DNA of 64,000 nucleotides, taken from the NCBI GenBank assembly GCA_008632985.1, contig QPGO01000048.1, forward strand, positions 1-64,000. Reading direction: 5' to 3'. The position numbers were made by a program, and so were the translations under genes. Each line of letters begins with the position of its first letter. Positions within the stretch are counted from its first letter, which is position 1. The notes under the pieces are model-generated. The model searched no databases, had not been told where the DNA came from, and saw nothing but the letters and a program-made list of their open reading frames with translations. This DNA is from Psammoneis japonica. Taxonomy: Eukaryota. This document shows positions 27,101 through 62,112 of this stretch, in pieces.

Positions 27101-27212
27101 ACATGATCTGATGATGTGTGGATGGCAATGACTGATTGCAACCTTGTCACCTTGGTCTCTCCTTGCAACTTCATTGCCGCTGAGGTCTGTGTCTTGTTTG
27201 ACCTTGCACTCC
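24140..27212 (+). mobile_element. Degenerate Ty3/Gypsy LTR retrotransposon relic
   Basis: gag knuckle-like CPAH...WKHCIANP (~24820), protease-like MDLG (~25310), RT-like FAGH.DWVQ (~26020), integrase CIHDNGSGF...QANAVCECAHQTVGDIL (26323-26658) in PR-RT-IN order, and degenerate direct repeats at ~24237-24297 and ~27149-27210. Confidence 0.7.
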
Positions 27213-27799
27213 ACATGCAACTGACTGGAGACAGATGGGTGGGCTGGACCAGGGCCAGACAAAGTTGAGGTTTGGGCTGATCACTTCCAAAATGATTGAG
27301 TTTGCAAGAGAGCGATCTTTGCACATGAAACAGTGTCCAACAACTTTTGAAGGCTTCTGCATCATGCAAACAACACACAAAACATCTAAATTTTGCATTG
27401 CCTCAGAAGTCATTTTTTGGTTGGAAAATGACTGCACCTTCTGACCAATGGACTGGCTGTTTTTTCATTGCTTTTGTCATTGATCTTAAGAACAATTGAG
27501 TGCCAGTCTCTTCATGTCTTCAATTGTTCACCATCCTTGGTGGACATGCAAGATTCATCAACAGCAAGCGTGCTGCCATCAAAACTTCAAATCACAGTCA
27601 AGACAGAATCATCAAGAAAAAACCACCCAACCCTTGTTTCAATGCCTGACTCTGCAACTGTGGTGCAACACAACCCCAGATTTCCACTGCATTGTTGAGA
27701 ATTGGAACGGTGTGTTGCACGGTTGTCTGATGTGCTGCTGTGCTGCCTGTCTCACATTGACATTTTCATCTGCAGCAGGAGGAACCTGAGAACCTCCTT

Positions 27800-29300: not shown

Positions 29301-31419
29301 CAAGAAGAGACACCAAGTCCAAAGAAGGCAAAAGAAGGAAAAGTGGCCTGCATGCCAGAGAAAAAGAGCCCTCCTCTTTGTGTTCAAACAATGGCCCTCA
29401 CAGTGTCACTCAGCCAGCTTGTGTTTGTGGACAAGGAAACAAGATTTGCTTTCTGGGGGCAGCTGAACAAGGGTGTGAGAAACAGACACAGCTGGTGGGT
29501 TGAGAGAAGGATGAAGATCTAAAGGAATTGGTTGGTTGTCCTGACTTGTCTGACCACAAGTGATTGTCTGACCACAATTGATGAGAACAATGCCAAGCCA
29601 CATCTTCAACTTCATCAGTTTGCATGTCACAAGTTGGGCAACAAGCCACAAAAAGACAACAAAAGTGCAAGACAGAGTGCTTTGTTGTTGATGATGAATT
29701 TGTGTTTGACATTGACATGTGCACTTTCTGCTCATTGCACTGGACCACTTGTGAGCAGCAAACAAGTGCCATTGTCAAGTTGACCAGAGAGGTGCATGAT
29801 GAAGATGATGCTGACCCAGCTCTTGTGCATGTGCCACCACACCATGTCTTGAGTTTGCTGGCAACAAACTTCCAAAGGAAGCCCAAGAGCATTGCAGGTG
29901 TCCTTCTCTCTAAGACTGACAAATGCAACAACATTCATCACAATTCTGGCATCTGCTGGCTCATTGTTGCTCTGTGCTTGCAAAGACAGTGAAACACAGC
30001 CATCCACCAGCAAAGCATCCACTCCAATTTGCACTGAAAAGTTCATCAATCAGTGCATTTGGGGAGCCTGCAGTGGCAATGCTGTGCCATGCAGTGTGCC
30101 AGCGGAGAGCAGAGAGTGAGCAAAAATTGCACTGGCAAATCACAAAACTTGCCAACAGGGCAGATGTTTTTCAGGCAGCTGCTGGCTGGCCCACCTGCCT
30201 GGCCTGGCTGGAGATGCCCCCACCCTGGCAGCTTCTCAAACAGCATGGGCAAAGCTGCATGATGACAACACTCAAGTGGACAGCAATTCCTTGAGTGAGT
30301 CTCCCTCTTGTGGCTCATGACTTTGACTTTGTGAGCTGCCTGCACAAGAGAAGTTTGCAAGCTGCACAGTGCAGCTTTTCATTGCCCTCCCTGTGCAGCT
30401 CACAACTTTGTGCACTGCACAAAGGAAGTTCACAAGCTGCGTGATGCAATGTTTCATGATGGAAGCACCCAACCTTGCTTGCTCAAAACAACACAAGAAA
30501 CAGACCATGACAGCAGCAGCAACAGCCAATGCCAGATTGTGCCACCAAACCTTTTCCCACCAAGAACACCAATGCATCACATGCCACAGCATTTTGCTCT
30601 GACAAATGCATCCATGAAAAGAGAGGTGAGACAAGTCAAAAATGGACGAAACTTCTTCTTTGACTTTGCTGTCATTCCTGCTTAAATCTCACAACTTTAA
30701 CAGCTGATGCTGATTTGCCACCAAACTTTTCAGGCCAACAATGCCAACATGTGACATGCTTTGTTGCACTCAGAAAAGTGCACACAAGAAAAGAGAGGTG
30801 AGAAAGAAGTCCAAAAATGGACAAACACTCCTTCCTCATGCTGAGATTTTGCAGACATTCACACTCTTTTTTCACAACTGTTGCATTTCAATTTGTTTGT
30901 TCTCAACAAATTGAAGAGTGCAGACCATTGCACAGATGATTGAGACTCGTTGTGATTTGTGATGCCAAGTGTTGGGCAGAGTTGGTTGGGTTGGCAAGCA
31001 GCCCACAGCAGGGTGAGGCAGGCTGGAGATGATGACGATGAGCAAAAGAGGATCAGGGGGGCAACTCAAGTGTGTGGAGCACTCATCATGGGAATCTGCA
31101 ATCTGCCACTTTTACAAAGGTCCAGGAACAACTGGCTGATGAGGTTGCTGTTGTCCTCTCTAAACATTTGAGTGACTGCCTGGGTTGGCTGACTTTTGAC
31201 TGCAGCGGCACCTGTGCAATTTCTTTCTGCAAAGATGTTCATGTGGCTTGAGATCCCCCACCTCTGAACATTGAGACAGCCGACAAGAGCCAAGGGGTTG
31301 CTCTCTGGCAAGGCATTGATTGATGCTTCTAAGGAAGGGAGTGTTCTTGATTCAGCAGACCCAAAATCTCAGTTGCAACAAGGCTTGGCTTCACTCAAAA
31401 GCCAGTGCATGTGAATTGA

Positions 31420-31662
31420 CTGCTGCTGGCATGACTGCTGCAACCACTGCCATTCTGACTGCTGCCATTGCAACTGCTGCTGTTGCAACTGCTGCCATTT
31501 TGACTGCTGCTGTTGCAACTGCTGCAGTTTGCAACTGGCACTGTTGTGAGCACTGCCATTTTGACTGCGTTGCAATTGCTGCCATTGCAGCCATTGCCAT
31601 TGTGGCAACCACGACAATTGCAACTGCCATTGTTGTGACTGCTGCCATTGTGACTGCCACTG
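31420..31662. repeat. Degenerate minisatellite of (G/T)CAACTGCTGCCATT / TGACTGCTGCCATT-like units
   Basis: Recurrent actgctgccatt / actgctgctgtt units visible in the sequence. Confidence 0.8.
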
Positions 31663-32049
31663 TTTTTAGACTTTTGTTGTTGCATTTGCCATCATTGGTG
31701 GGGCTGCAACTGTGGCTGTTCAGACCCTGCTGCTGTTGAAAAAGCTCAATTGTGCTCTTGCTTTTTGTGTCAATTGGCAATTTTCTCCACATCTTGTTTG
31801 TTCTTGAAATCCCATTTTGCCTGACTGCACCCTTCCTCTGTTTCCAGCACCCTCACACAAATGCTCCTCTTTTGCTTCACTGACAAGCAACTCTGCCATC
31901 CTTGCTTGCCATGACTTGCTTGAACATTTGCTGGTGAGCCTGGGGCATTTTGCTTTCATGCCAACTCTTCTTTGGCATCACACTTGTGGCCCCAAACAGG
32001 GTTCCTTGTCCTTTGATGTGGTCTGATCTTCTTCTGCCAGAGCCCTTTC

Positions 32050-33210
32050 TGCTGCCACCACTGCTGGTTCCACCCATGGCATGCTGGGGTGACAGGTGCT
32101 GAACAGTGAGTTCTTTAGATGTCAGGGGTCCATGGCAAAGGAGGAGGTGGGTCAACAGGGATGTGTGGTGGGAGGGTGGCATGGAGTGCACTGAGTGATG
32201 GAGAGAAGAAAGATGAGCCAAGAGTGTGGACAGACAGTTGGGAGGAAGAGTTGTCAGTGACAGTTGGGTGTCAAAGAAGGAGAGTTTGGCATGCAGAGAG
32301 GTGGTTCAAGAGAATGACACTGAAGTTGAGGCTGAGGATTTGTGAAGCCCAAAGTTGGGGGGTTGCACGGTGTGATGGGAGGTGCCAAAGTGGTCTGGTG
32401 ACACTTGCTTCTGGGTGATGTTGGAGTGGGTGAGGAAGTTGGAGGGGGGTGGGAGCGAGCATTTGAAGGCAGAAAAGGAAGCTTGGGAGTTGGAGAGGGA
32501 AGATGGATCAGCCCAAGGTGGCTTGGGAGGGAGAGGAGGGATGCCGGAGGAGGATGTTGTGGTTTGTGGTTGAGACACCAAAAAAGAAGATGTGGAAGTG
32601 GCGTCCAGGCCAATGCCACCTGGGTGATCAAAGGTGAAAGGGAGGAGGAAAAGTCCTGCTTGATTGACAGTGTCAATGATGTCAGAGCAGCAGGCGGATG
32701 ATGCAGTGCGACCAATGAGCTTGTCCCGTGTGCTGCTGAGGCGAGCCTTGTTTGACAGGTTTTCAGGGGCAGGCAAACCAGGCGCAGGAGGTGGGGGAGC
32801 TGGCAGTGCAGCAACATCAATGGCTGGAAATTGGTGGCTTGATGGGGCTTCCGACGGTGCAGAACCAAGCACAAATTGAGCACCAATGTTGGCGGGGTGT
32901 TCCAAGGGGTGGTCGTCCACTGACAAGAAGACCGGTGGGGTCTGGATGAACTTGTTGTCGAGAGTGGCACAGACCACCAAGGGGGGCCAGTGTTTCAATG
33001 ATGGTGCAGATGATGGTGTCATGGATGTGGTTTGAAAAAGGGCTCTTGTGCATTTTGGGGCAGGTGAAAGCACGGTCTCCGCAAGGGGCGGTCTGGGCAG
33101 GTGTGACCGAGTGGACAGTCGTGTTGGAGCAGATCAGGAGAAACAATGGGGAGCCACAGCTTGAGGAGAAGGAGAAGTGTGAACAGGGTTGGTGGGAGTT
33201 GGTTTGAGGC
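32050..33210 (-). mobile_element. 3' fragment of an RLE-type (CRE-like) non-LTR retrotransposon
   Basis: CCHC-like PCGDRAFTC.K.HK...SNHIHD, followed by HPANIG (RPAD-like), AIDV and LLPFTFDHPGGIG restriction-like endonuclease motifs. Confidence 0.6.
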
Positions 33211-33528
33211 ATGTAGTCGGGAGAGAGAGTAAAGGCATGAGGATCGTTCCAACACTTTGTTATTTTGGCGAGTTGACGACGGCTCCTCTCGCTCGCTTTT
33301 TATTTGTTCTTCTTCCGCACCACTTAGGTACAGCTTACAGACCTCCCAGTCATTGGGAGTGCGCGGCTGCCGCGGCTTTATCGATCGCTTTTGGCTTTTC
33401 CCCCTCCCCGCCCGCCCCGCGGCCGCGGCCGCGCTCATTCATACATCGGTGTTGCCGAACTTCCAACATTTATACAAAACAAACAACACACCACTCCACT
33501 CAGCAAACAGCGACAAGCAACCACAGAG

Positions 33529-38275: not shown

Positions 38276-38862
38276 ATGTCGGTTCCAACAACGCTTATCA
38301 GCGGTACAATTGCCTACCTTGTTCTTTTTGGTATCCTTATTGGATTAGTATTTGCCTCTTTGGCAACTGGCATGCTGAATAAGGACAATGCAGCGTAAGT
38401 TTCAACGATTCGCTTGTGACTGACTGTCGGCGAGCTTTACGTATGATGACCGTAGCCGCATACCACGAGCATGTTGTGGGTGAACAAGACGATGCTTCGT
38501 TCCAAGCAATATCTCTTTAAGTTGTTTTTTGTCTTTCTAACGTTTTCTCGCTGTTTGTCTTTTTTCTTTGCAACAGTGTCGGACACGTAGTAGTATCAAT
38601 CGCTGTTTTCTCCATGTGGCTTTTCTGGTGAGTTTGTTCCAAGAAAACGATGGCGGCATTTGTCAATACGGTGTTTTGCTTTCAAAGGCAAACTCAGGAC
38701 GACAGGACGTTTTTATGTAGAGGGCTCGGAGAGGGCTCGTCGTTCGTATGTATTGTCTTGAGTTCTAAAGCACCGTTTGTTGTTCGATGAACTGCTTTTC
38801 ACAGGCTCTGCGCATGGATGCATCAGTGGCACCCGCTCATTCAACCGATATACGAGGAATAG
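38276..38862 (+). CDS. V-type ATPase V0 subunit e (3 exons)
   Basis: Spliced product ...SIAVFSMWLFW/LCAWMHQWHPLIQPIYEE*, two TM helices, GT-AG introns. Confidence 0.88.
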
Positions 38863-39196
38863 TCAAGGCTTTGTGGATTGAGTAATGAAAAATTCAGACC
38901 TCGCTGCAAACTTCTATGGAACAGAATAACAATAGATTTCAGCACATACATTGAACATCTCCCGATTACCATTCACAACCTCGTCAAGGAAACAGTATAA
39001 CGTATAGACCGGGGCGCACCATGCGTTGTATTGGTAGCGACCGTCTTCTTCCGATTTTGCGCCCCGAATAATGAGAAAACGATTGTAGATACTTCCACAT
39101 CATACCTGAACATCCGCTTTCAAGACTCCCAAGAGGCCTCTCGTTCCTTTCTCACAGCCCTCCTGACAGATAAGCTCCTCTCTTTTTCTTTATTCA

Positions 39197-40945
39197 TTAT
39201 GAGCCAAGTTCCTCGGTGAGAAAATATGAGATTGCTTGATTCCACCAATTTGGTAGGGGCGCTTCAACGTCAATGTCATATTCAGTGATGCACAATCATG
39301 AGGTATGCAGCAAGAATCGCTGCTGCTCACCATCCACCGGCAAAGCGGCAACATGGGCCAACGAGTCTCTGTCGTCGCTTGTACTTGAATAGTCGGTGTC
39401 AAAGAGAATGGGGAATCCCAATCCTTCGGCACAGTGAACTCACACTTGATGTTTCCTTCCAGCACGAGTTTCGATTCGAAGACACACAGGGCAGAATCAC
39501 TGCATTCTTCAACTGCAGCAAAGGTAGACTGGGGTGTGCCGACTTCCCGTGCACTGGAATGTCAATCTCCCCATGAAAAGGGATTTCCTTTGCACTGGCA
39601 GCTGCCACAGTCAAGCAGCTCTTTTTTGCTTTGCAAAAAAAAAGAATTCAGCAACAAGCTTTGCATTCATTTCATCAGTTTTTGCAAGTGCAGTGCAGCC
39701 AGGTGTCCTGCGATCAATTCTGTGAACAAGGCCCCTTCTTTCATGATTGAGTGCTGAAAGCGGGACATTGAAATGATCCAGGAAATCCTCCAAAGATGCA
39801 TCAAAGCATGTCCTGGATTGCTCTCACCCTTTCTTTAAACTGGAAGATCTTTGCAAAGAAAGAATTCAGCAACAAGCTTTGCATGCATTTCATCGGTTTT
39901 GGCAAGTGCAGTGCAGCCAGATGTCCTGCGATCAATTCTGTGAACAATGCCTCTTTCTTCATGATTGAGTGTTGAAAGCAGGACATTGAAATGATCCAGG
40001 GCATCCTCCAAAGATGCGTCAAAGCATGTCCTGGATTGCTCGCACCCTTTCTTTGAACTGGAAGATTGCATTCTTCCAGCCGAAGTCTTGCATCTCCTGT
40101 TGAAGCATGCCACACCAGGCAGTTTGATGCAACCACTGCACTCCCAGATCAATGCAAAAATTGAAAATCAAGGCCACACAAGTCTCAAAGCAGTTCTTCC
40201 ACATCCTTGACTTGTGCTGCTCAGCCCTTGCATTGAGTTGCAGCCCTTGCATGATGGCATTTTGACCCTCCTTTCTTCTTGATCAGTTTTCCATCATTTT
40301 CCAGCTTTCTCCAAAACTGGGTTGGCTTGTGACACAGTGAGGGAGCCATCAGATGCAAGGCACAAAGCTGAGCACACCAGCAACAAAACACCATGACATC
40401 AGGGCATGTTTCAATGGATTTGGACATGTCCCAAGCCAGCAGATGAGCTCCCCGGATGCAGCATCGTCAGCCAGACAACCAGACCCTGTGAAAGCACGCA
40501 AAATTCCAGACAGCTCAGGCTTGTTGTTTTCTGCTGCATCAAGTGATGTGCATTGACCAGGTCTTTGGGTGAAAGTTCAAGTGGCAATGTGTTGCAACAA
40601 ATCCAGAACAGCGTCAGTCTCACCAGCCATGGTGTGAACTTTCTTGGCATGGTCAGATGGGTCATTCATCAAAACAAGCAAACACAAGGGCTTGCTGCTG
40701 CTGCTGCTGCTGCCACTGTGCAAAGCACTTTCACAACCCAAAGGCTGGTCCATGGTGCACTCAGAGATGTCTGCATGATGACAAACCAACTGCTTTGAAA
40801 TGTCTTCCTTTCCAGGCACATTTGTGCTGCCTCTGACACCATGCCCCAATGCTCAACAGCTGACAATGTTCAAGCATCAACATTGAAAAATGGGGCCAGA
40901 GCAGCTGACAACCATTGACATCATCTCTGTCTCAATCTTCATCAT
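39197..40945 (-). pseudogene. RluA/RluD-family pseudouridine synthase pseudogene with internal tandem duplication
   Basis: KLPGVACF (motif I), GIVHRIDRRTSGC (motif II, twice), ETRAGRKHQV*VHCAEGLGFPILFD (motif III), RFLLHTS*L...VEAPLP.WW; in-frame stops and frameshifts; 5' end approximate. Confidence 0.85.
39641..40066. repeat. ~218-bp-period tandem duplication
   Basis: aaagaattcagcaacaagctttgca...aactggaagat occurs at 39641-39848 and again at 39859-40066. Confidence 0.95.
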
Positions 40946-41039
40946 GGGATTCATTTGTTGAGAGACCATGCCCGATGAGCGCTCACAGGGGGGGAAAGCA
41001 GGTGCCTTCTTCATTTGTTTTCATGTCCAGCTGTGCCAG

Positions 41040-41998
41040 CTTTTCATGCCATCATGTTGTGGTGCTGAGTGTTGCTTTCAGTGTTTGATTGTGTGGTGTT
41101 TGGTGTGTGGCACACAGGGCCAGAATTGTGCCCCCATGCAGGCCAACTTAGCAAGGACTTGCACATTTCAGAGCAGCAGAACAAAATCCAAAACTTGCTG
41201 CTCTCACTGTGCCTGTGCTCATGGCAGCCTGAGCCACAATTGGCAGCAACCTCTGTCATTCAGTTGGCAGCAACCTTCATCAATTGGTGGCCACAGGCTC
41301 AGGCACTCAACCTCCCTCTCAGCTTTCAGTGACACCCCAATCTCAACAATCTCAACGAAGGGAACCTCCATCAGCTGGCAGTGACATCTCTGTCAACTGG
41401 CAGCAACCTTCATCAATTGGTGCAAACAGCACCATTTGTGCCACACAATGGGTGACAACCATCAACATCACCTCTGCCTCAACCTCAATGTCCCAAAACT
41501 CATTTGCTCAAGGACCGCGCCTCTGCCAACCTCTTGGCACATCCCTCTCTCATGCAGCTGCCAGGGGTCTCTGGTTTGTGTGTTCTCAGGTGAAGTGGCC
41601 TTTCCAACTTGCTTCTATCCACCCCCTCTTTGTGCTGTCACTTTTGTCATGCTGAGTGTTGCTTTGAGTGTTTGATTGTGTGGTGGGGTCCAGTGCATGT
41701 GTGGTGTGCATCAAGCAGGGCTGTTGTCATGCCCACATGGACCAATTCAATGAGGACTTGCACATTTCAAAAAACACAAAATCCAAAACACCATTCTCAC
41801 CATGCCTGCACTCTTGGCAGCCTGAGTCAATTGGCAGCAGTGACCTCCATGAATTGGAGCGATGCAAGTGACACCAGCACTTGTGCCATGCAACAGGCAA
41901 CAACTTCCTCCTCAATCTCAATCCTAAAACTTGTCTGCCAAGGGACTATGCCTGCCGAGCTCTTGGCTTCCATCTCTCTAGCAGCTGCCAGGGCTCTC
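41040..41998. repeat. Degenerate nested direct repeats, TpA/CpG-depleted
   Basis: gctgagtgttgcttt.agtgtttgattgtgtggtg at ~41064 and ~41651; tggcagcaaccttcatcaattggtg at ~41265 and ~41398; cagctgccaggg at ~41555 and ~41982. Confidence 0.8.
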
Positions 41999-42340
41999 TA
42001 TTTTTTGTGTTCTCTCATTGTTTCTAGTAGAGAAAACGTGGATTTCACTTCGTTTGGAATCCCTGATGTCCACACAAGATTAGCAATCGCGACCTACCAT
42101 CCATCACGGGATTGACATAAATGAGAACGGCGTCCTTAGAACTACTGATTATATTGACAGGCAGTTAAGATGTGTTTTTTATGTTCTTTGCCGCAAGATC
42201 CATACAAAGCAAGGAATCAGACGTATGCTCAAGTCCACCACTACACTGCAATACCAGCACAACAGGCGTATGCTGTCGTCTTCAAGCCGTTGCGCGGAGT
42301 ATGACAAATATACGGCACGCCTTCTACCAGGCTCTTTCAA

Positions 42341-44159: not shown

Positions 44160-45902
44160 ATGTTGTCGCATCGATCACTGCGTCACAAGGTATTCCAGGA
44201 ACTGAAATTTGGTATACGAAGAAGCAGTGTCTCTAGTTTGCGTCCTGTTGTGTCCGCTACGAAACGATTGGGTGGAGTAGTATTATGCGAACCGCCCTGC
44301 CGATCACAGTCGACTGCTACTTTTCCGGTAGACATTGAACAAGTGCATATCGGGAAAGAGGGTGAAGTATTTCAAGCTAAGCTTGATGATGAAGGCTCCG
44401 GCGTTGAACTGACATTCCCAATGAGCAGGGGCGAGTCTGTCACATCGTATTTTCACGCCCCGTGGCTCTGGTCGAACAACCCATCCTTTGTTCATCCCAC
44501 CTCCGGGCAACGATTGAAGACTCCAGGTCGATATCCTGGCACCAAAATTGCCGCAGTTGATTTCTTGGCTGGTGAAGACGAGCTCAAATCTTCTGGAGCA
44601 ACATTACCGATCCCATTACCACCGAAGGGCTGCGTGCATCCAGTGGGAACTGTTTTCAAGCAACCGAACAGTAATGACGATGAATCACAGCTGTTAATTC
44701 GTGTCGAATGGGAACCGACTAGTAACGAGCAGGACCTTTTCGTCTCATATTATTCTGTCGACTGGCTTCGGCAGTGGAGATATGACGACGAGGCTTTACA
44801 ACAAAGACAATGTCTCTCTCAGGTTACTGAAGAGCATTGCATCAGACGAAGAAGAAATGAACAGGATGGGCTTCTTCACGTCGACTTCAGCGAGTTAGCT
44901 ATCGATGATTGTGACGATACAAGGTTTGAGATATTACAGGTACTGTAACAACTCGAAGCAATGATACGCTCTTCTCCCTTTCTTCCACACAGCAATTTCG
45001 CTTTCTAACTCTCATTCGATACGTTTCGTGCTTTTCAGGCAATTTTCCGAGATGGCGCCGCGATTGTCAAGAACGCTCCAGCGATTCCACCATGTATCGA
45101 TTCTTCCGTTGAACTCGTGGGTCGTAAATTGGGCGGGACACTTTCACACGGGGCTTTGTATGGCGACGTCTTTCATGTCCAATCCTTTCCTGATGCCCAC
45201 AACTTGGCTTATACCTCGGTACCGCTACAACCACATCAAGACCTTGCTTATTATGAAAGCATGCCGGGATTGCAGTTGCTGCATTGTGTTGAGAATAGTG
45301 GGGTCGATGGCGGGGAGAGTGTTTTGATAGACGCAATGGCAGCAGCAAATCGTTTCCGACAAGTCGCTCCACAGTACTTTGAAATATTGATGACGTGTCC
45401 TGCAACCTTTGTAAAGCAGCGAGAGGGCGCTGATATGGTGTACCGTCGACCGCATATTGCTGTGGATGCCATGGATGGCGAAATTGTGAGCGTGTCCTGG
45501 AGCCCCCCATTTGAAGGACCAACAAGCCTACCGGCTCATTTGGTTGAGGCATATTATGAAGCTTACGCTGCGTTTGAACTCATGTTGGATAATTCCCTAC
45601 CTGAAAACTGCCAGGCTAGTGTGATCCCTGAAGCTCTCAGTTCCGTGTTACAGGATTACGCACATGAACACACTTGGGAGCGTCAGCTGGAGCCCGGCGA
45701 GATTCTTGTTTTCAACAATCGTAGATTGCTACATGGTCGCCGCGGATTCTCAGTGAATGAGGGTGCCGGCCACGGTCGTCACCTCGCGGGTGCGTACACC
45801 AACATAGATGACACCTTGAAAGAGTATAGATGCCTCCGAAGAAAAAGGAACGATTGTCGCCCAGTGCCAAATGCGGGGAATGGGAGTATCATGGTGCTGT
45901 GA
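44160..45902 (+). CDS. TauD/gamma-butyrobetaine dioxygenase-like 2OG-Fe(II) enzyme (1 intron)
   Basis: NLAYTSVPLQPHQDLAYYES.PGLQLLHC, GGESVLID, FNNRRLLHGRRGF. Confidence 0.88.
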
Positions 45903-50945: not shown

Positions 50946-51347
50946 TTTGATATAATGAAGTGGAAGGTGCTTGAATCGATCGGAATACGGTGCTATGACG
51001 ACTCGTCCAATGTTAGACGATAACATTGAAAGCAACCTTCAACCGACAGAAACAATTTGCCGGGTCCAGTCGTCCCCCACGCCGCAGTGTGCAGATGATG
51101 CGTTCTGGAGAATTCTGGAGCTCGGGCCTGCTCGAGCGAAAACGGCGGCAGTTCTGTTGGCTACCGTAAAGGCTACGTAGGAATTGGTAATAATTATTGA
51201 AAGTACTAAGTCCCTACGAATGTTCTACATACGAATTCATGGTACTCTCTTTACAAATGTACACAAAAAGTGATAGTGATTGAGAATTGTGGCAACGGTC
51301 ACGACACCACAAAAATCTCTTCGAAAACCGCGCTCGTTTTCGATCAC

Positions 51348-51639
51348 AACTCGTCGTCTCGCACGATGTGTTGTTGTTTGCCAAGCCGGAAGCCGTAATC
51401 TCCGAGGATGGCTCGCCCTTCCTCTGGATTGAGAGCTCGCTCTTGTTTGGTATTCCACAACTCATTTTGCTTGATGGTGTGTTGTCTCTCTTTTTCAACT
51501 CGTCGTCTCGCACGAGGTGTTGTTGTTCGCCAAGCCGGAATGCCGCGATACCCAAGGATGGCTCGCCCTTCCTCTGGTTCTAATTGCCTGCTCTTGTTTG
51601 GTGTTCCACAACTCATTTTGCTTGATGGCGTGTTGTCTC
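51348..51639. repeat. ~149-bp-period tandem duplication
   Basis: aactcgtcgtctcgcacga...gtgttgtctc at 51348-51488 and 51497-51639. Confidence 0.95.
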
Positions 51640-54380: not shown

Positions 54381-54678
54381 GGTCTGAAGCGGCGGCTGAG
54401 CGAGAAGCTCATCATCTATCTTCTCTCGTTGCTCGTCGTGGCAATCATCCGCACCGCTTCCACCATGCTTGTTTGGCGTGCGCTCGCGCGCGCGAGCGCG
54501 GAATCTGTCGACGCGAAAGCACGGCCGACCATCCGACATCGGACGTTTTCAAGTTTTGGTGGTGATGGCATGACGCATGACCATCACAATGATGAGCGAT
54601 AGCGCTGAGATTACGTCGTCTTTCTGAAACTCATCATTCGTTTGCGCTTATTGTACTGTCAGCCTTGTCATTATCAAC

Positions 54679-55533
54679 ATGAGCATGCTCATCAACTCGT
54701 TCCTTGTGCAAGGCGCGGGCGCAGCGCTGGCCAGTGGACTGAACACCGTTTCATCCCTTCCACTCGACGCTCTTGTTCTCATGTCTCTCGGAGCGGACTT
54801 TCCCACTTTAATTAACACTGTCGACAAAGCCAACATTGACTGTCCTGTCCATCTTACCGAGACGTATGGAATCATTGGGCATGATGATGATTTGGGACGC
54901 AACGTTGAATTGATGGAAAAAGGGCGAGGCCAAGAGCATGGATTTCAGGGCGGCAGTGGCGGGCAAGGATGTCTTGCACCAGCATTTTCACAAGGAGCGG
55001 TTGCTGGACACATGGATTCTGCGGTCCCTCAAGACGCATCCTCTTTGATGGTGATTGCCGACACATCTGGTGCTTTTGCAGAAGTGTCGGGAAAATTGCC
55101 TCTGCACTGTGGTGGGATCACAAAGGAGGCTTGGTTTCTAAACAATGGCGAACTCGAGAAAGTCCCTTGCTTTTGGGTGGCCAGCCAATCGCGCGATTGT
55201 CCAATCGGTGCACCAGCGTTCAAGGGCGATGCCAGTGAGGCGACAGAAGCCCCAATGTCAAAGCTCCCTTCAGGATGGCAACCCAGTGGACAGGTCGGTC
55301 TGTTTCCATGTCATGCACGCGGTGTGAATCATTGCGGTGCCGAGAATGTAGAAGTGGATGCCATTGCATCACTTCTTTCAGAGAAGGGTTCTGCTCCTCA
55401 CATTTTTGGCATGTTTGCTCACGGCGAACTCGGTCCGTCTAGCTTCAGTGGGTTCATGAACGAGAAGAACGACATTGAGTGCGAGAAACACAGCATGACG
55501 AGCATTTTGTCAATCCACACGTCAGTGGGTGAG
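54679..55533 (+). CDS. FIST-C domain protein, interrupted 3 codons before its stop by the Copia insertion and hypermutated
   Basis: LFPC.ARG...E...IFGMFAHGELGP (FIST-C). The native end GCG TCC AGC TGA lies after the 3' TSD at 62118-62129. Confidence 0.75.
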
Positions 55534-55880
55534 TGTGACAATGTTCATGTTTGCATGTTTTTACAACAACATCGGACCTCCACGATTCAAATCAGAGATC
55601 CAAGATTCGAACCCCGTGTGCGATGCTCAGTCTCGAATCCCGCGGAAGCCGAGTCACGAATGCGATGTTTGTTCCCAGCTTCGCGCTTGTTCAACTTCGC
55701 GTTTCCTTTAGATGGCAGCTGCATCTGCTCATAAAAACTGCTCACAATCTTTCCAATGCACTGATTGTCACCTCTCAACTTTTGGTGCAACAAAGTTGCT
55801 GATTGATTGTTGTGTCGCAATCACAGCTTTTAATCACTGAAAGTGCAGACGAATCTTAGAATTCCGGCTACTTTCCCACA
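55534..55880 (+). repeat. 5' LTR
   Basis: tgtgacaat...ctttcccaca; 338/347 identical to the 3' LTR by manual alignment. Confidence 0.97.
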
Positions 55881-55954
55881 CGCTTCCTCTGCGAAACCCA
55901 CAAGTTAAGTCAATCGATCTTAAGCTCTCGATTCTACTTCACTCTGCTGTCACC

Positions 55955-57462
55955 ATGGTCACGCAGACACGAACCGCGGCTGCTCTAGCTGCCTCTGTTG
56001 CAGCTCCCGCTGCTGCACCCGCTGCAGCTCCCACCACTGCTGCTGCTCCGGCAACAGCACCTGCTCCTGCAGCCGCTCCAGTTGCTCCTGCACCTCCCCC
56101 AGTCGTTCCTCCCGGTGCACCTCCAGGAGGAAGTGGCGGAGGAGGTGGAGGAGGAGGCGGAGGTGGAGTCCCACCAGGTGGAGTCCCGCCAGGTGGACCA
56201 CCATTGGCACCTGTGCCACCACTGCCGATCTTCGCGTTGACTCCAGGTCAACACCGTCCCAACAACTTCATCGACTGCGGCACATCGCAAGGCCTCAAGC
56301 TTTGGAACGCCGCTGCTGCACCGCTGCCACACGAGTTCAACGGCGATTCAGAAGGTCTCAAACGGTTTTGTGAGACACTCAGTCAACGAGCTGCCGAGGC
56401 AGGATGGAAAACAGGGGCAAGAGACATGCTTGCCATTCCCGACGCGAATGGAACTCCACGAGATCTCATCTCCGAGTGCGGGCTGCTCACTCTGCAGGAT
56501 GTGAGAACCCACGCGAACACCTTCGCGAATCCACCTGCGCGACAAGCACAGAACAATGTGCAGATGGCCGAGGCGATCTCTCAATCCCTTGCGGAGGAAG
56601 CAAGAGACAAGACATTGGCTGAGATGGATTCCCACACGATCAATGGAAATCAAATCGGCACACTGTTCTTCAAGCTGCTTGCGCAAAAGGCCATCGTTGA
56701 CACACGCTCTGCCACCAACTGCTTCCGCGAGAACTTGTCAAGCCTGGACACGTGCATGGCGGCTGTTGGCTCGGACATCGAAGAGTTCAACAAGTGCGCC
56801 AAGCTCAACGTTGACGGACTCCAAGCTAGAGGAGAGCAGTGCGACGACCTTGTCATGAACCCATTCAAAGGATGCACCGCAGCTGCTGACGAAGCATTCG
56901 TCAAGCACATCATGTCACACAAGGACAGGTGCGACGACGGTGAGGAATTCACGCCGACACAAATCATGACGTTGGCACTGAACAAATGTGTTTGACCTCA
57001 AGCGCGAGAAGAAGTGGGGAGCACTGTCACCGGCTGAAGAGCAAATCGTCGCGCTTGCAGCCAAGGTAGACTCCATTTGAGGATCAGAACCTTCAGCCAT
57101 CTAAAGCTTTGAAGGCCAAGGCTGGTTCAATCAAGGAAAGAAGCACACGGTCAAGGAAGACCAAGACCACTCCACGTCAGAGACAGAAAGCGGACGAAGC
57201 CTGGAAGAAAGTCCCGCCCAAGGAGGACGCTCCCAAGAAGACAGTGAACGGTCATCAGTGCTGTCACAAGCGCGTCAACAATCGCGACTGTCACTGGTGC
57301 CCACATCACACTGCTTGGGTCATGCACTTGCCTGATGATCCGGGCAACCAAGGCTGTAGACTCCGCAAGCAACAGTCTGCTCCATCCACAGACACGTCGG
57401 ACAAGAAAGTCTCCTTCGCAAGTGCTGTCTCTGCCATCCCAAACGAAGTGGATCAAGAGTGA
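55955..57462 (+). pseudogene. Copia gag (frameshifted near 56990 and 57078; no Tyr in the two main ORFs)
   Basis: FALTP...IDCGT..GLKLW, PFKGC..AAD..FVKHI, WKKVPP, WCPHH..W..H motifs of CoDi-type gag. Confidence 0.85.
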
Positions 57463-60400
57463 CTGCTCTGCAGGTTCACTCTGACACTGCTGCTGTCCTT
57501 GCAGACAGCCGTCACTGTGTCAGTGCTCCTGATGGCGGTCGCTGGCGTCATGAAATGTGCAGCATCGATCTGGATCATGCTGCTGTTCATGATGCCATCC
57601 CTTCCTTCAGAAAAGTGCAAGCGCCTGTCACATGCCGCAATGACGCTGGGTGAGTGGGTCATCTCACATGTCCTGGCTGAACTGGGCACAAGACAAGTTA
57701 AGACTTGCCAGCGACGGCCAACGACGAGGTGCTGCGCACGGCATCATGCGTCGACGAGGCCAGGTCACCGCTCCAGAGTGGCCACCAAGAAGGCTCACTG
57801 TGTCATTGCACGACACAAGACGGTTAGAGCGTGCAACTCAGCCACACCACACCGTCCCGAGCGAACGGAGCCCACTTGCGATTCGGACTCATTCGCAATC
57901 GGCGTCGACTCGCATTCTTCCTGCACCATGTCCAACAACGAGGCACACTTCATTGGTCCTCTTCGCAAATCCAACAAAGTGGTGCTCGGTGTCAAGGGCT
58001 GCTTGCGTGCTGAGGGAGAAGGAACAGTGCAGTGGGCAATTGAGGACGACATGGGACGAGTGCACAGCATTAAAATTCGAGACGCACCCCATGTGCCGGA
58101 CTTGCCTCATTGTCTTCTCTGCCCGCAGCAATGGAGCCAACAAGCTAATGACCACACGCCAGAGCCTCACGGAACCGTGTCTTGGACCAGGGACGACGGA
58201 CCATTGCTGATGTGGGACCAGCGCAAGTGCCATCGCCTGATTCCATTGTCCGCCAACTCTAACGTCGCCAAGATGCGCTCCGCACCCGGTTCCAACAAAT
58301 GCCGGACCTTTGCAGCCGCTGTCGAAGAACAAACCGACATCGAAACTATCGAGCACGTGGCCTGTCAAGCTCACATCATGCCACCAGACGACGAGAGCAT
58401 TGCGAATGATGACGAGGCTGCAATTGATGCAGACGTCTTCAGAAGTCCATCCGAGACACGTCCTTCTGAGACGCAAGACGCACGCAACACTGCTGATGAG
58501 GATGCTCCTGTCTCATTTGAGCCAACAGACGGAGCAAGTCGTTCAGACTCAGACGAGGAAAACCTGAGGGATTTCACGACACCGGAGGTGCAGCAGGACT
58601 TGCCGGAACCCATCAACATCATACCAAATGATGACGCCCTTGCTGCCACAGATGACCAGGGTGAACTATTGCGTTGGCATTGCCGCCTGGGCCACATGTC
58701 ATTCAAAATGATAAAGCCATTGGCCGCCCTAGGCATTCTACCGAAACGCCTTACAAAGGTGCACAACCCAAAATGTGCCGGCTGCCCATACGGTGCCATG
58801 ACGAAACGACCATGGCGATCCAAGTCCAAGCGGAACCGACGAATCCACTTGGCAACTTCGCCTGGAGAAGCCGTATCCGTCGACCAGCTCGAGAGTCCTA
58901 CTCCTGGATTGATCCCACAGCTCAAAGGGAGACCTACGAAACAAAGGTATCGAGCAGCGACAATTTTTGTTGATCATTTCAGCGGATTGGGGTGCATGTA
59001 TTTGCAGAAAGGACTTACCTCAGCCGAGACGCTCGAAGCCAAGCACGCTTTCGAGGCATTCGCACGCCGGATGCACGTCCGTATTCAACACTACCACGCC
59101 GACAATGGAAGATTTGCTGACAATGCTTTCATACAAGACGTCAAGAAGCAACAGCAAACAACATCCTATTGTGGGGTCAACGCCCACTTCCAAAACGGCA
59201 TCGCGGAGAAAAGAATGAGGGACCTCCAAGAGCAATCTCGGAAGCAACTCCTGCATGCAAAAGTGAGATGGCCAACGGCTATTGAGTTGAACTTATGGCC
59301 AAGCGCTCTCAGGAACTCAAACGAGATCAAGAATCACTTACCAAATCACGAGGACGGCTCTTCTCCGCTGGAACGTTTCTCGTCCGTCAAGGTCCAGCCT
59401 AATCTCAAACAACACCATACCTTCGGCTGTCCCGTCTACGCCTTGCACAACCGGTTGCAGGGAGGAGGTAGGCTGCCTAAGTGGGACCCAAGGGCAAGGT
59501 TAGGAATCAATTTGGGACCATCAACAAGACACGCAGGTTCAGTTACCTTGGTTCTGAATTTGCAGACCGGACTCGTATCGCCGCAATTTCACGTACAATT
59601 TGACGACTTCTTTGAGACTGTTCGTCCATCTGCTGGGAATCCTCCTACATTCTCACAATGGCAAGGCATTACAGGTTTCAGACAACTCAAGACAAGGAGC
59701 ACTTTCAACATCTTTGGGAAATCAAGTGACGTACCGGTTGAGGGATTAGTCCCTACCACAACGGAACCACCTGAGCCGAATTCGGATATCCCGTCTCAGC
59801 TGCTGCATCCTACTGATACGTCTACCACTGATGACTCATTTGATAATGCCCAACCGGATGATGAAATGCTATACACGCCTCCAGATGATTCTGACGCACC
59901 ATCTGAGCCACAGCGCACTATGGGTCAACCCAGTACCAGTAGGTCCGGCCGACAACGACGCCCGACCGAAAGGATGCGCGAGAGCCAACTACAACGGGCT
60001 CAAGGCATTGTCTCCTACAATGCAGAGGCAGAGGCATATTATGATGCGATGCACGAGGATGATTACAAACTGCAGGACGATATGGACTCACCTATCTCTT
60101 TTCTGGCGAGCTCGGACCCCGACACCATGTACTTTGATCAGGCCATGCGTGAACCTGACAGAGACGAATTTATCAGGGCCTGTGTTAAGGAGGTCAATGA
60201 TCATATTGAAAGGAAACATTGGATACTCATTCCAAGAGAGGACGTACCTGACGACGTCGATGTTCTCCCTTCGGTATGGTCTATGAAGCGCAAAAGAGAC
60301 ATTAAGACCCAAGCCGTCTACAAATGGAAGTCCCGACTTAATGTGCACGGCGGAAAGCAAGAGTATGCTGTCAACTACTTCCAGACCTACTCTGCCGTGG

Positions 60401-61722
60401 TCTTCTGGTTCACTATCCGGCTCCTACTGATCATTGCCATTCTTAAGAAGTGGCATACACGCCAAATCGACTTCGTTCTGGCGTATCCGCATGCCGATAT
60501 CGAATATGATATGTACATGGAGTTGCCTGCAGGAATTGAAACAAAATATGGCAATGGTAAGACTCATGTTCTGAAGTTGCTCAAGAACTTATATGGACAG
60601 AAGCAAGCAGGGAGAGTATGGCAAGAACACTTACGTGATGGATTGTTAAGGATTGGTTTCGTACAATCGGCGGTTGATGAGTGCCTGTATTTTCGTGGCA
60701 ATGTCATTTTCATTCATTATGTCGATGACGGTATCTTTGCATCCCCTGACAAGTCTGCTATTGACAAGGCGATACAGGATATCAGAGATGAGAATTTTGA
60801 TATTGATGATCAAGGCACTCTGGACGACTATCTCGGTGTCAACGTCGAGACACTACCAGACGGCAGAATGAAACTTACCCAACCTCACCTTATCAATCAG
60901 ATACTGGAGATGGCCAATATTCCAAAGAGACTACCAGATAAGTCTACTCCTGCTCCTTCCTCCAAGATCCTCCACAGGCATATGAGTGAGCCTGCTTTCC
61001 AAGGGAGCTTTCATTACCGATCCATCATCGGCAAGCTCAATTTTCTGGAGAAGAGCACTCGACCGGATATCGCTTACGCGGTGCACCAAGTCGCACGCTT
61101 TTCTTCCGATCCCAAGGTTTCTCACGGTGAAGCCGTACTATGGCTCTGTAAGTACCTAAGGTCAACCAGAACTGAAGGTATTATACTACAGCCCTCAACG
61201 GACAAGTCCCTTGAAGTTCACGCCGACGCGGACTTTGTGGGCAATTGGAATAAGCTGACTGCACCCGATGACGTCGGCACTTCCAAATCTCGAACTGGGT
61301 TTGTCATCACCTATGCAGGGTGTCCGATTGTCTGGACGTCCAAGCTACAGACTCAGATCGCGCTCAGCACTACTGAAGCTGAATTTATCGCTCTTTCGGA
61401 AAGTCTTCGAAGCGCCATCCCAATTATGAACCTCATTCAAGAATTTATGGATCACGGTCATAATGTCCCTTCCAAGACACCAGTCGTACATTGTAAGGCT
61501 TTTGAAGACAATTCTGGAGCATTGGAGATCGCGAGATTGCCTAAGATGCGTCCTCGGACAAAACACTTCAACCTCACTCTCCACCATTTTAAAGACCATC
61601 TTCGCAAAGGTCTCATATCAATCCTACCAATTGATACGGCGGATCAGATTGCAGACATTTTCACCAAACCTCTACCACAGAATCTCTTCATTAAACACAG
61701 GAAATCGCTCCTTAAGTGGTAA
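57463..61722 (+). CDS. Copia pol: protease, GAG-pre-integrase, integrase, RT, RNase H
   Basis: IGVDS, WHCRLGH, VSVDQ...HADNG...NGIAE, QIDF..AY, LYGQKQAGR.W, YVDD, DADF, STTEAE, EDN, ADIFTK. Confidence 0.95.
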   Translation: MLCRFTLTLLLSLQTAVTVSVLLMAVAGVMKCAASIWIMLLFMMPSLPSEKCKRLSHAAMTLGEWVISHVLAELGTRQVKTCQRRPTTRCCARHHASTRPGHRSRVATKKAHCVIARHKTVRACNSATPHRPERTEPTCDSDSFAIGVDSHSSCTMSNNEAHFIGPLRKSNKVVLGVKGCLRAEGEGTVQWAIEDDMGRVHSIKIRDAPHVPDLPHCLLCPQQWSQQANDHTPEPHGTVSWTRDDGPLLMWDQRKCHRLIPLSANSNVAKMRSAPGSNKCRTFAAAVEEQTDIETIEHVACQAHIMPPDDESIANDDEAAIDADVFRSPSETRPSETQDARNTADEDAPVSFEPTDGASRSDSDEENLRDFTTPEVQQDLPEPINIIPNDDALAATDDQGELLRWHCRLGHMSFKMIKPLAALGILPKRLTKVHNPKCAGCPYGAMTKRPWRSKSKRNRRIHLATSPGEAVSVDQLESPTPGLIPQLKGRPTKQRYRAATIFVDHFSGLGCMYLQKGLTSAETLEAKHAFEAFARRMHVRIQHYHADNGRFADNAFIQDVKKQQQTTSYCGVNAHFQNGIAEKRMRDLQEQSRKQLLHAKVRWPTAIELNLWPSALRNSNEIKNHLPNHEDGSSPLERFSSVKVQPNLKQHHTFGCPVYALHNRLQGGGRLPKWDPRARLGINLGPSTRHAGSVTLVLNLQTGLVSPQFHVQFDDFFETVRPSAGNPPTFSQWQGITGFRQLKTRSTFNIFGKSSDVPVEGLVPTTTEPPEPNSDIPSQLLHPTDTSTTDDSFDNAQPDDEMLYTPPDDSDAPSEPQRTMGQPSTSRSGRQRRPTERMRESQLQRAQGIVSYNAEAEAYYDAMHEDDYKLQDDMDSPISFLASSDPDTMYFDQAMREPDRDEFIRACVKEVNDHIERKHWILIPREDVPDDVDVLPSVWSMKRKRDIKTQAVYKWKSRLNVHGGKQEYAVNYFQTYSAVVFWFTIRLLLIIAILKKWHTRQIDFVLAYPHADIEYDMYMELPAGIETKYGNGKTHVLKLLKNLYGQKQAGRVWQEHLRDGLLRIGFVQSAVDECLYFRGNVIFIHYVDDGIFASPDKSAIDKAIQDIRDENFDIDDQGTLDDYLGVNVETLPDGRMKLTQPHLINQILEMANIPKRLPDKSTPAPSSKILHRHMSEPAFQGSFHYRSIIGKLNFLEKSTRPDIAYAVHQVARFSSDPKVSHGEAVLWLCKYLRSTRTEGIILQPSTDKSLEVHADADFVGNWNKLTAPDDVGTSKSRTGFVITYAGCPIVWTSKLQTQIALSTTEAEFIALSESLRSAIPIMNLIQEFMDHGHNVPSKTPVVHCKAFEDNSGALEIARLPKMRPRTKHFNLTLHHFKDHLRKGLISILPIDTADQIADIFTKPLPQNLFIKHRKSLLKW

Positions 61723-61765
61723 GACGTTTTCGAGTCATCATTCCACCCGACATTGTTGAAGGGAG

Positions 61766-62112
61766 TGTGACAATATTCATGTTTGCATGTTTTTACAACA
61801 ACATCGGACCTCCACGATTCAAATCAGAGATCCAAGATTCGAACCCCGTGTGCGATGCTCAGTCTCGAATCCCGCGGAAGCCGAGTCACGAATGCGATGT
61901 TTGTTCCTAGCTTCGCGCTTGTTTAACTTCGCGTTTCCTTTAGATGGCAGCTGCATCTGCTCATAAAAACTGCTCATAATCTTTCTAACGCACTGATTAT
62001 CACCTCTCAACTTTTGGTGCAATAAAGTTACTGATTGATTGTTGTGTCGCAATCACAGCTTTTAATCACTGAAAGTGCAGACGAATCTTAGAATTCCGGC
62101 TACTTTCCCACA
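61766..62112 (+). repeat. 3' LTR
   Basis: Direct repeat of 55534-55880, followed by TSD gtgag. Confidence 0.97.

What the first reader, a model, noticed from the sequence alone, without database searches (positions are those of the whole stretch)
39197..41998. A cellular gene (RluA pseudouridine synthase) with an internal duplication has been destroyed by the same process
No TE protein is recognisable here, yet TA nearly vanishes from ~39.4 to 41.9 kb. Motif III reads ETRAGRKHQV*VH (inferred ACT->GCT across a TA, and CGA->TGA). The catalytic HRID exon region is tandemly duplicated (218-bp period), and the copies differ partly by TA/TG and CG/CA changes. Adjacent degenerate direct repeats at 41.0-42.0 kb may be the trigger. 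This suggests that repeats or duplication, not only TE identity, can attract the mutator, as in RIP. The mutation fades at the 3' end of the gene.
Basis: partly seen in the sequence, partly recalled or inferred. Interest (0 to 1): 0.78.

Follow-up and report, generated by a model that had tools for sequence, protein, structure and literature searches.

The report
Dead gene copy records TA erasure
In what appears to be a diatom, a spare copy of an RNA-modifying enzyme gene that lies beside a small local repeat has had nearly every TA and most CG steps rewritten to TG or CA while the working copy elsewhere is untouched, so this DNA-mutating process can hit the cell's own dead DNA but is not set off by gene duplication alone.

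Summary
The erasure is real. An intact, intron-less paralogue lies on contig C227. Against it, inside 39.4-40.9 kb, 40 of 43 TA and 49 of 66 CG became TG/CA, with 1 and 7 kept. An age-matched paralogue pair keeps 25 of 45 TA.

The cell did not lose the gene: the window copy is a spare without the parent's upstream DNA. The 218-bp tandem is younger than the erasure (7 of 8 changes shared), so it is no trigger. The 41-42 kb array is older than the erasure (14 TG/CA swaps), occurs only here and lies in the most erased core.

Duplication alone does not suffice: a linked 2-kb duplicate keeps 73 of 75 TA, and 6 of 12 retrotransposon copies are barely touched.

Best reading: a silent domain nucleated at the array or junction is A-to-G mutated at TpA (TAC preferred), with slower CpG decay. 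It is not RIP. TpA hypermutation is published for Bigelowiella (2026 preprint), and this scan already noted the process many times on other DNA of this genome.

The parts
39102..40906 (-). Dispersed duplicate (pseudogene) of an RluA-type pseudouridine synthase gene; homology to the C227 parent starts inside its 5' end (between its two in-frame ATGs) and ends about 95 bp past the stop
   Evidence: 21 indels against the parent, most of them frameshifting; 5 internal stops plus one beside an indel; 11 of 13 Tyr codons changed
39400..41920 (.). TA/CG-erased block
   Evidence: 4 TA and 23 CG in 2521 bases; 200-bp profile
40100..40906 (-). Core of the block within the gene copy: every scorable TA and CG lost
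   Evidence: 0 of 29 TA and 0 of 44 CG kept
39400..40099 (-). Halo: TA lost, a third of CG kept
   Evidence: 1 of 14 TA and 7 of 22 CG kept; CG core against halo p 0.0002
39102..39399 (-). Spared 3' end of the gene copy
   Evidence: 5 of 8 TA and 8 of 15 CG kept; TA halo against end p 0.011
39637..39854 (-). 218-bp tandem unit A (second HRID), younger than the erasure
39855..40072 (-). 218-bp tandem unit B (first HRID)
39426..39476 (-). Motif TGRKHQxRxH with A>G across a TA and CGA>TGA
41004..41587 (.). Upstream local array, unit 1 (with internal sub-repeats)
   Evidence: 77-80% to unit 2, 14 TG/CA swaps; no second locus
41598..42014 (.). Upstream local array, unit 2; its right end (41925-42000) still holds TA and marks the edge of the block
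40897..40983 (.). Probable partial third array unit abutting the 5' end of the gene copy (weak, 64-68%)
   Evidence: blastn E 7e-6 for 33 bases
55531..62062 (+). Control, not part of the locus: young Copia-type retrotransposon, 5' half TA-erased with CG kept, 3' half untouched

Best explanation
A copy of an RluA-type gene, lacking the parent's upstream DNA, came to lie against a small single-locus tandem array (about 0.55-0.6 kb units) between two working genes. The array and junction became a silent chromatin domain. In that domain a strand-symmetric mutator turned A into G at TpA (TA>TG on one strand, TA>CA on the other, TAC preferred), reaching about 1.5 kb into the gene copy and fading. 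A slower C>T loss at CpG followed in the same domain and is complete only in the core. The 218-bp tandem arose afterwards.

SHOWN: the spectrum, the nested core/halo/spared zones, the order array < erasure < 218-bp tandem, the single-locus array, the intact parent, and that duplication alone is not sufficient.

INFERRED: that the copy was dead from about the time it arose; that the array or junction is the nucleus; that the domain is 5mC-marked heterochromatin; that the chemistry is adenine deamination by a TadA/ADAT2-type enzyme (about 0.6 on its own), with the CpG half being 5mC deamination.
For: Spectrum: A>G 40 of 86 strand-sites at TA against 19/186 AA, 17/182 CA, 9/172 GA (p 2e-16); C>T 50 of 134 at CG against 6-8% elsewhere. 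Strand choice 18 TG: 22 CA.

Zones and order. The array is local, while the same kind of DNA search finds erased TE remnants at 64-82% identity in dozens of places.

Dead early: outside TA/CG sites, the catalytic domain differs at 34 of 411 0-fold and 17 of 99 4-fold sites, a ratio of 0.48, as expected if only one branch was under selection.

TA faster than CG, same domain: in erased zones of 12 retrotransposon copies A>G at TA is 433/1132 and C>T at CG 70/2214, against 120/4541 and 62/6812 outside. TAC preference 18/25 here and 203/353 there. E. coli TadA-derived editors prefer UACG (PMC8052359, passages). The genome encodes TadA/ADAT2-like deaminases and many C5 methyltransferase matches. 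DNMT5a-dependent CG methylation of TEs is shown in another diatom (PMC9998398, passages). A young 401-bp tandem in a blind sample differs at TA/CG-class sites in 9 of 11 differences.
Against: No methylation, chromatin or small-RNA data were seen. That the array lies in the core is one case. The core's right edge falls inside array unit 2, whose last 90 bp keep TA. A linked 1.97-kb direct duplicate is unhit, so local repetition alone is not enough either, unless that pair (99% alike, both frames open) is too young or is transcribed. The 151-bp tandem at 51347-51639 is ambiguous (TA o/e 0.28, CG 0.98). The array may be the remnant of an old low-copy TE that I cannot recognise. TadA/ADAT2 homologues are ordinary tRNA editors in most eukaryotes (own knowledge), so their presence is weak. 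Polarity rests on one intact paralogue; there is no DNA outgroup. A third, partly erased version of the gene at half depth is not explained.
Confidence: 0.55

Rival explanations
1. Silence alone: any long-untranscribed stretch (here a copy without its promoter plus junk) falls into the mutated state, and the array is a passenger.
For: Intact, open-frame duplicates are spared; dead fragments are erased (TauD fragment 13 of 14 TA; L166 0 of 20 TA kept); 140 of 340 blind 500-bp bins are TA-erased; the Bigelowiella target is single-copy and silent.
Against: The equally dead 3' 300 bp are spared and erasure is graded toward the array, though nearness to the next active gene could explain that; retrotransposon tracts are anchored at the 5' end, which points to a nucleus.
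Confidence: 0.2
2. Spreading from a TE: the 41-42 kb array is the remnant of an old, low-copy or extinct mobile element, and the gene copy was hit by leakage or was carried inside it.
For: Tracts leak out of TEs in this genome (TA falls in the 1.5 kb left of the window's retrotransposon); a TauD gene fragment sits between inverted repeats on C24 and is erased.
Against: No second locus by blastn or by three TA/CG-tolerant patterns; no terminal inverted or direct repeat above shuffles around the block; no Pfam match in the upstream open frame.
Confidence: 0.15
3. RIP-like homology sensing: the dispersed duplication itself (window copy against C227 gene) marked the copy, and selection kept one intact copy.
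For: The gene copy is a duplicate and is erased. A third version at half read depth also shows TA>TG/CA changes, one of them on the other strand than in the window copy (loose ends compared by eye).
Against: The parent is unhit. The best-matching 3' end is spared and 1 kb without homology to the parent is erased. Age-matched dispersed paralogues keep 25/45 and 28/48 TA symmetrically, a linked 99% duplicate keeps 73/75, and the 3' part of a family with at least 15 near-full copies is mostly untouched.
Confidence: 0.1
4. The 218-bp internal tandem triggered the mutation.
For: It lies inside the block and is in the size range that triggers RIP (155-220 bp, PMC4858203, passages).
Against: All 4 scorable TA changed identically in both units; the 7 sites changed by a canonical transition in both units all chose the same strand (p 0.008), and only 1 is private; 0 TG/CA swaps in 211 steps; the tandem lies in the halo, not the core. 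Gene conversion between the units could hide independent hits, but they differ by 8%.
Confidence: 0.02
5. Chemistry rival: error-prone gap filling (polymerase-eta-like, WA motif; recalled from somatic hypermutation) during repair of deaminated 5mC makes the A>G changes as a by-product of CpG decay.
For: CpG decay is 3.5-fold higher in TA-erased zones, and A>G at AA (1.6%) and CA (2.3%) is slightly raised there; AA 0.10 against GA 0.05 in the gene copy (p 0.11).
Against: TA exceeds AA about 25-fold, and TA is erased in young copies whose CG are 97% intact; 43 of 340 blind bins are TA-only against 7 CG-only.
Confidence: 0.1
6. Assembly or sequencing artefact.
For: None found.
Against: Short-read contigs of run X1 repeat the block with no other letters over 39412-40684 and 40723-42178, at the same depth as the flanks. 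X1 may be the sample the window was assembled from, so it checks the assembly and is not an independent occurrence.
Confidence: 0.01

Closest known systems
TpA-specific hypermutation of integrated NCLDV and virophage DNA in Bigelowiella natans (Mettrop et al., bioRxiv 10.64898/2026.01.13.699255; parts 1-3 of 5 read, plus passages; supplements closed)
   Same: A>G/T>C confined to TpA, giving TpG or CpA; regional; a silent, single-copy target is possible; clusters of TpA-poor, CpA+TpG-rich windows; ADAT2 proposed, not shown.
   Different: A different lineage (homologues named by the sources are diatoms). The target here is a host-gene copy plus a non-coding array, not viral DNA; erasure is near saturation and comes with CpG loss. 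The words diatom, CpG, TAC and pseudogene do not occur in that paper's main text. The rate was measured there, not here.
Repeat-induced point mutation (RIP) of Neurospora and other ascomycetes, with leakage into single-copy neighbours (PMC4858203 and PMC3105345, passages only)
   Same: Regional, context-specific transitions that kill repeats and leak into neighbours; the end product is dead DNA of skewed dinucleotide content.
   Different: [quoted passage not shown] Here the leading change is A>G at TA, tract limits ignore homology limits, and linked 99% duplicates are spared.
CpG decay by 5mC deamination in silenced DNA (general knowledge); DNMT5a-dependent TE methylation in Phaeodactylum (PMC9998398, passages)
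   Same: Accounts for the CG>TG/CA half and for its restriction to dead DNA.
   Different: Cannot give TA>TG/CA, which here runs more than tenfold faster in young copies.
RluA/RsuA-type pseudouridine synthases (PF00849)
   Same: The parent on C227 has the domain over the cut-off, with HRID and TGRKHQxRxH conserved across 13 aligned homologues.
   Different: The window copy is a pseudogene; the substrate and compartment of the parent were not tested.

Membership tests
RluA-type pseudouridine synthase (parent gene) | PseudoU_synth_2 domain with catalytic Asp in HRLD/HRID | tested here: met
   PF00849 80.4 bits against cut-off 26.8; H349 R350 D352 invariant in 13 sequences
RluA-type pseudouridine synthase (window copy) | Intact reading frame | tested here: not met
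   21 indels and internal stops against the parent
RIP | C>T transitions as the mutation | tested here: not met
   The leading change is A>G at TpA; C>T is confined to CpG and slower
RIP | [quoted passage not shown] | tested here: not met
   3' 300 bp of the duplicate spared, 1 kb without homology to the parent erased; parent unhit; retrotransposon 3' parts mostly spared
RIP | Linked near-identical repeats are efficient triggers | tested here: inconclusive
   Against: 1.97-kb linked pair keeps 73 of 75 TA; for: 401-bp tandem with 9 of 11 differences in the TA/CG class
RIP | RID/Masc1 methyltransferase, premeiotic timing | not tested
   27 PF00145 matches were listed but not classified; timing cannot be tested with these tools
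Bigelowiella-type TpA hypermutation | A>G/T>C restricted to TpA, both strands | tested here: met
   40/86 at TA against 5-10% in other contexts; 38% against 0.7-2.3% in young copies
Bigelowiella-type TpA hypermutation | Regionally confined, with normal DNA beside it | tested here: met
Bigelowiella-type TpA hypermutation | Target of foreign (viral or TE) origin | tested here: not met
   The gene part is a host-gene copy; the origin of the array is unknown
Bigelowiella-type TpA hypermutation | About 1000-fold raised rate per generation, on in some lines only; same enzyme | not testable with these tools
   Needs mutation-accumulation lines and knock-outs

The most novel reading that the evidence does not exclude
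The TpA mutator is a homology-guided, adenine-deaminating counterpart of RIP that acts in trans on host genes. The erased window copy, or the array beside it, has directed erasure to the second allele of the parent gene, which is the half-depth third version seen in run X1, leaving the cell with one working allele.
Probability: 0.12. Interest if true: 0.88.

Novelty: new variant of a known kind. Interest (0 to 1): 0.55.

Why it matters
TpA-directed A>G mutation of chromosomal DNA has, in my searches, one published case, on viral inserts in an unrelated alga. This locus shows it reaching saturation on host-derived DNA in an apparent diatom, where 140 of 340 blindly sampled 500-bp bins are TA-erased. 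It also separates what the process reads. It does not read TE protein identity or copy number, and it does not read homology to a parent gene. It follows a local domain with a nucleus and a gradient. That makes targeting (array, methylation, silence) and enzyme (TadA/ADAT2-like, TAC preference) testable in transformable diatoms; a natural DNA adenine deaminase would interest the base-editing field. The locus itself is one more record of a process this scan has already noted many times in this genome, and its most striking claims (gene destroyed, internal duplication as trigger) do not hold.

Tried and rejected
Internal tandem as trigger: rejected.

C227 as an allele of the window locus: rejected. 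The flanks share nothing, and window 33-48 kb has no second haplotype in the assembly.

Array as degenerate upstream DNA of the parent: rejected; the TA/CG-tolerant alignment scores 163 against a shuffled mean of 212.

Terminal inverted or direct repeats around the block: scores 24 and 34 against a shuffle maximum of 38.

Synteny to tell the old locus from the new: 6 of 80 metagenome loci (the best-scoring) were compared by tblastx. The output was cut at 60 rows, and no convincing neighbour match to either locus was seen; uninformative.

WA (polymerase-eta) signature: AA against GA not significant in the gene copy (p 0.11).

Expression: no RNA holder was listed. Run X2's contigs skip GT..AG introns in flanking genes and so behave like RNA; in the gene stretch the listed X2 pieces match the C227 type exactly (46 and 20 differences). 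No window-type X2 piece was listed in the block, but contigs cannot show absence and the table was cut, so this is no evidence of silence.

Third version in the assembly: not found by DNA or protein search.

Literature: searches for diatom with TpA, RIP or A-to-G hypermutation listed no diatom description; one search gave the Bigelowiella preprint, after the lead. Only open-licence PMC and bioRxiv texts were searched.

Look-ups of earlier scan notes by sequence and by relatives were blank. Methyltransferase and deaminase matches were listed but not assigned to families beyond Pfam. No structure or complex prediction was run.
Full report
WHAT IS THERE. The window is the first 64 kb of contig C44 of a 91.4-Mb, 597-contig assembly. 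The closest homologues of the gene that carry names are from diatoms (Bacillariaceae sp., Cylindrotheca, Nitzschia), so I treat the organism as a diatom. Three stretches of the window have lost TA: about 24-33 kb, 39.4-41.9 kb and 54.5-58 kb. In 39400-41920 there are 4 TA and 23 CG, where the window's genic background predicts 104 and 144. Short-read contigs of run X1 reproduce the block with no other letters over 39412-40684 and 40723-42178, both tandem units included, at flank depth. X1 may be the source sample.

THE PARENT. A DNA search of the own genome finds one other locus, C227:77.5-79.1 kb, 74-82% identical; the protein search adds only remote family members. The flanks are unrelated and the window has no second haplotype in the assembly: this is a dispersed duplicate, not an allele. 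Homology runs 39102-40906. It starts between the parent's two in-frame ATGs, so the copy lacks the parent's upstream DNA. It has 21 indels, most of them frameshifting, five clear internal stops (three from CGA), and 11 of 13 Tyr codons changed. Outside TA/CG sites the catalytic domain differs at 34 of 411 0-fold and 17 of 99 4-fold sites. The ratio of 0.48 is what selection on the parent branch alone would give (inference); in the N-terminal part the two classes are nearly equal (51/341, 15/86). The cell lost a spare, probably one that was dead early.

SPECTRUM. Counting each parent site once, within the block 40 of 43 TA became TG (18) or CA (22), 2 became AA and 1 is kept. Of 66 CG, 49 became TG/CA, 10 changed otherwise and 7 are kept. 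Per strand-site, A>G is 40/86 after T against 19/186, 17/182 and 9/172 after A, C and G; C>T is 50/134 before G against 6-8% elsewhere. An age-matched control lies beside the parent: a C227 gene and two 86%-identical paralogues on C138 keep 25 of 45 and 28 of 48 TA, symmetrically (p 1e-8 against the block). TAC is preferred: 18/25 against 22/61 (p 0.004). Polarity rests on the parent being intact; there is no DNA outgroup.

ZONES AND ORDER. Kept sites by zone: 40100-40906, 0/29 TA and 0/44 CG; 39400-40099, 1/14 and 7/22; 39102-39399, 5/8 and 8/15. The fully erased core therefore runs from about 40.1 kb into the upstream repeats, with a TA-first halo toward the 3' end.

In the 218-bp tandem, 12 parent TA/CG sites can be scored. 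All 4 TA changed identically in both units. Of the 8 sites with a canonical transition, 7 are shared with the same strand choice (0.5^7 = 0.008) and 1 is private. There are no TG/CA swaps in 211 steps. The four TA/CG-class differences between the units are two CG losses, one CG gain and one TA gain. The tandem is therefore younger than the erasure; conversion between the units is a caveat, but they differ by 8%.

The upstream array (units about 41004-41587 and 41598-42014, a weak partial unit at 40897-40983 touching the gene copy) shows the opposite pattern. It has 14 TG/CA swaps among 20 double transitions in 405 steps (two alignments that share about 30 bases of unit 2; TG and CA make up 101 of those steps). 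Its units were erased independently, so it predates the erasure (p 0.003 against the tandem).

IS THE ARRAY A TE? blastn and three TA/CG-tolerant patterns each return only the local units, with 0 matches in the reversed controls. The same kind of DNA search finds erased TE remnants at 64-82% identity at dozens of places, so a high-copy family would probably have shown. The tool warns that it skips very common words, and an extinct low-copy element cannot be excluded. No terminal repeats bracket the block, and the long upstream open frame has no Pfam match.

IS DUPLICATION ENOUGH? Mostly not. The parent region has normal TA. A 1.97-kb direct duplicate 6.4 kb apart on C24, 99% alike with both frames open, keeps 73 of 75 TA. 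The C227/C138 paralogues are unhit, whereas a fragment of the same gene lying in an erased block keeps 0 of 20 TA. The window's TauD gene is intact while its fragment on C24, between inverted repeats, lost 13 of 14 TA and kept 12 of 24 CG.

Of the 12 best-scoring copies (of 23 matches) of the window's Copia-type element, 6 carry an erased tract starting at or near the 5' end and 6 are barely touched. The 3' third is largely spared (one copy has partial loss further 3'), although it is as repeated as the 5' part. Results the other way: a 401-bp, 97% tandem in a blind sample differs at TA/CG-class sites in 9 of 11 differences, though TA-poor bins lie near it; the 151-bp tandem in the window has 4 TA in 293 bases (o/e 0.28); several erased blocks in the blind sample hold local repeats.

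TWO PROCESSES, ONE DOMAIN. In erased zones of the young copies A>G at TA is 433/1132 strand-sites and C>T at CG 70/2214; outside, 120/4541 and 62/6812 (the zones were defined by TA loss, so the TA contrast is partly by construction, the CG contrast is not). TA erasure thus runs more than tenfold ahead of CG decay, which is itself 3.5-fold raised in the same zones. Other A contexts stay at 0.7-2.3%; TAC is again preferred (203/353 against 230/779). Of 340 500-bp bins from 17 stretches of 10 kb taken at arbitrary coordinates on large contigs (18 asked, 1 absent), 97 lack both TA and CG, 43 only TA and 7 only CG.

MECHANISM. Best reading (0.55): array or junction, then a silent and probably CG-methylated domain, then A>G at TpA spreading and fading over about 1.5 kb, with slower 5mC decay. 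Adenine deamination by a TadA/ADAT2-type enzyme fits strict TpA with a TAC preference (TadA-derived editors favour UACG; PMC8052359, passages). Such genes exist on C38 and C26, but they are expected tRNA editors (own knowledge), so this step is inference. DNMT5a-dependent CG methylation of TEs is shown for Phaeodactylum, and diatom DNMT4 is RID-related with unknown function (PMC9998398, passages); I did not classify this genome's 27 PF00145 matches. Rivals: silence alone (0.2), unrecognised TE remnant (0.15), RIP-like sensing of the dispersed pair (0.1), internal tandem (0.02); for the chemistry, error-prone repair (0.1).

AN OPEN END. Run X1 holds three versions of the gene: window type at depth about 60-67, C227 type at about 27-35 (records with exactly the 21 and 23 differences predicted from C227), and a third at about 34 with 58 differences where C227 would give 50. 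From the rows shown (35 of the 50 sites; the table was cut) it lies roughly 4-7% from C227, far beyond the 99.2-99.8% identity of three apparent haplotig pairs, and it shares some letters with the window copy. One 30-base loose end differs from C227 at two places, both TA>TG/CA, one on the other strand than in the window copy (comparison by eye). It is not in the assembly. It may be a single-dose third copy or an erased allele of the parent; the latter is my novel case (0.12).

COMPARISON AND NOVELTY. It works like the TpA hypermutation measured in Bigelowiella natans (bioRxiv 10.64898/2026.01.13.699255; abstract to conclusion read, methods only as passages, supplements closed and possibly bearing on flank preference). 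There the main target is single-copy and silent, which also argues against a homology trigger. It is not RIP: the base change is wrong and the tract limits ignore homology (PMC4858203, passages); leakage into neighbours is the shared trait (PMC3105345, passages). My searches found no description in diatoms or on host-gene copies. This scan has noted the process repeatedly on other DNA of this genome, dead gene copies included; those notes are unchecked and are not counted as support. Class: new variant of a known kind; interest 0.55.

Noticed in passing
window 39193-40631, run X1 contigs: A third version of the RluA-type gene at about half depth, neither window nor C227 type, absent from the assembly, with TA>TG/CA changes in a loose end.
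   Followed up: partly
window 55531-62062 and L026-L036: Young Copia-type family: 6 of 12 copies have a 5'-anchored TA-erased tract with CG nearly intact; in those six, TA>TG outnumbers TA>CA on the sense strand 307 to 200 (p 2e-6), unlike the 18:22 in the gene copy.
   Followed up: partly
window 54500-55530: TA falls in the DNA left of the retrotransposon (14, 9, 3 per 500 bases toward the LTR), into an open frame without a Pfam match.
   Followed up: partly
window 24000-33000: A 9-kb block without TA and CG, with 15-bp tandem repeats at 31.4-31.7 kb; its right edge (33000-33240) matches about 30 other places at 67-82%.
   Followed up: no
window 45041-45417 and G000:C24:662667-664022 (L007, L134): A fragment of the window's TauD-family gene lies on C24 between 360-bp inverted repeats (87%), like a gene piece captured by a DNA element; 13 of 14 TA erased, half of CG kept.
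   Followed up: partly
G000:C24:658563-660520 and 664981-666953: Linked 99% duplicate of a 595-codon open frame, between erased blocks yet unerased; the protein was not identified.
   Followed up: partly
L139:4149-4946 (G000:C4): 401-bp tandem, 97% alike, 9 of 11 differences in the TA/CG class, including two TG/CA swaps: possibly early erasure of both units.
   Followed up: partly
G000, PF00145 search: 27 C5 methyltransferase matches on many contigs, several with stops or in clusters (C297, C10, C301); an unusually large set that may include element-borne copies.
   Followed up: no
L047:313-1785 (G000:C79): One open frame joins a deaminase-type domain to a 2OG-Fe(II) dioxygenase (DIOX_N plus 2OG-FeII_Oxy); the fusion was not verified at transcript level.
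   Followed up: no
window 38277-38863: Small three-exon gene left of the block, spliced in run X2 at GT..AG joints 38394-38577 and 38626-38804; it resembles V-ATPase subunit e from recall, not tested.
   Followed up: no
window 51347-51639: 151-bp tandem (88%) with low TA (4 in 293) but normal CG in otherwise normal DNA.
   Followed up: partly
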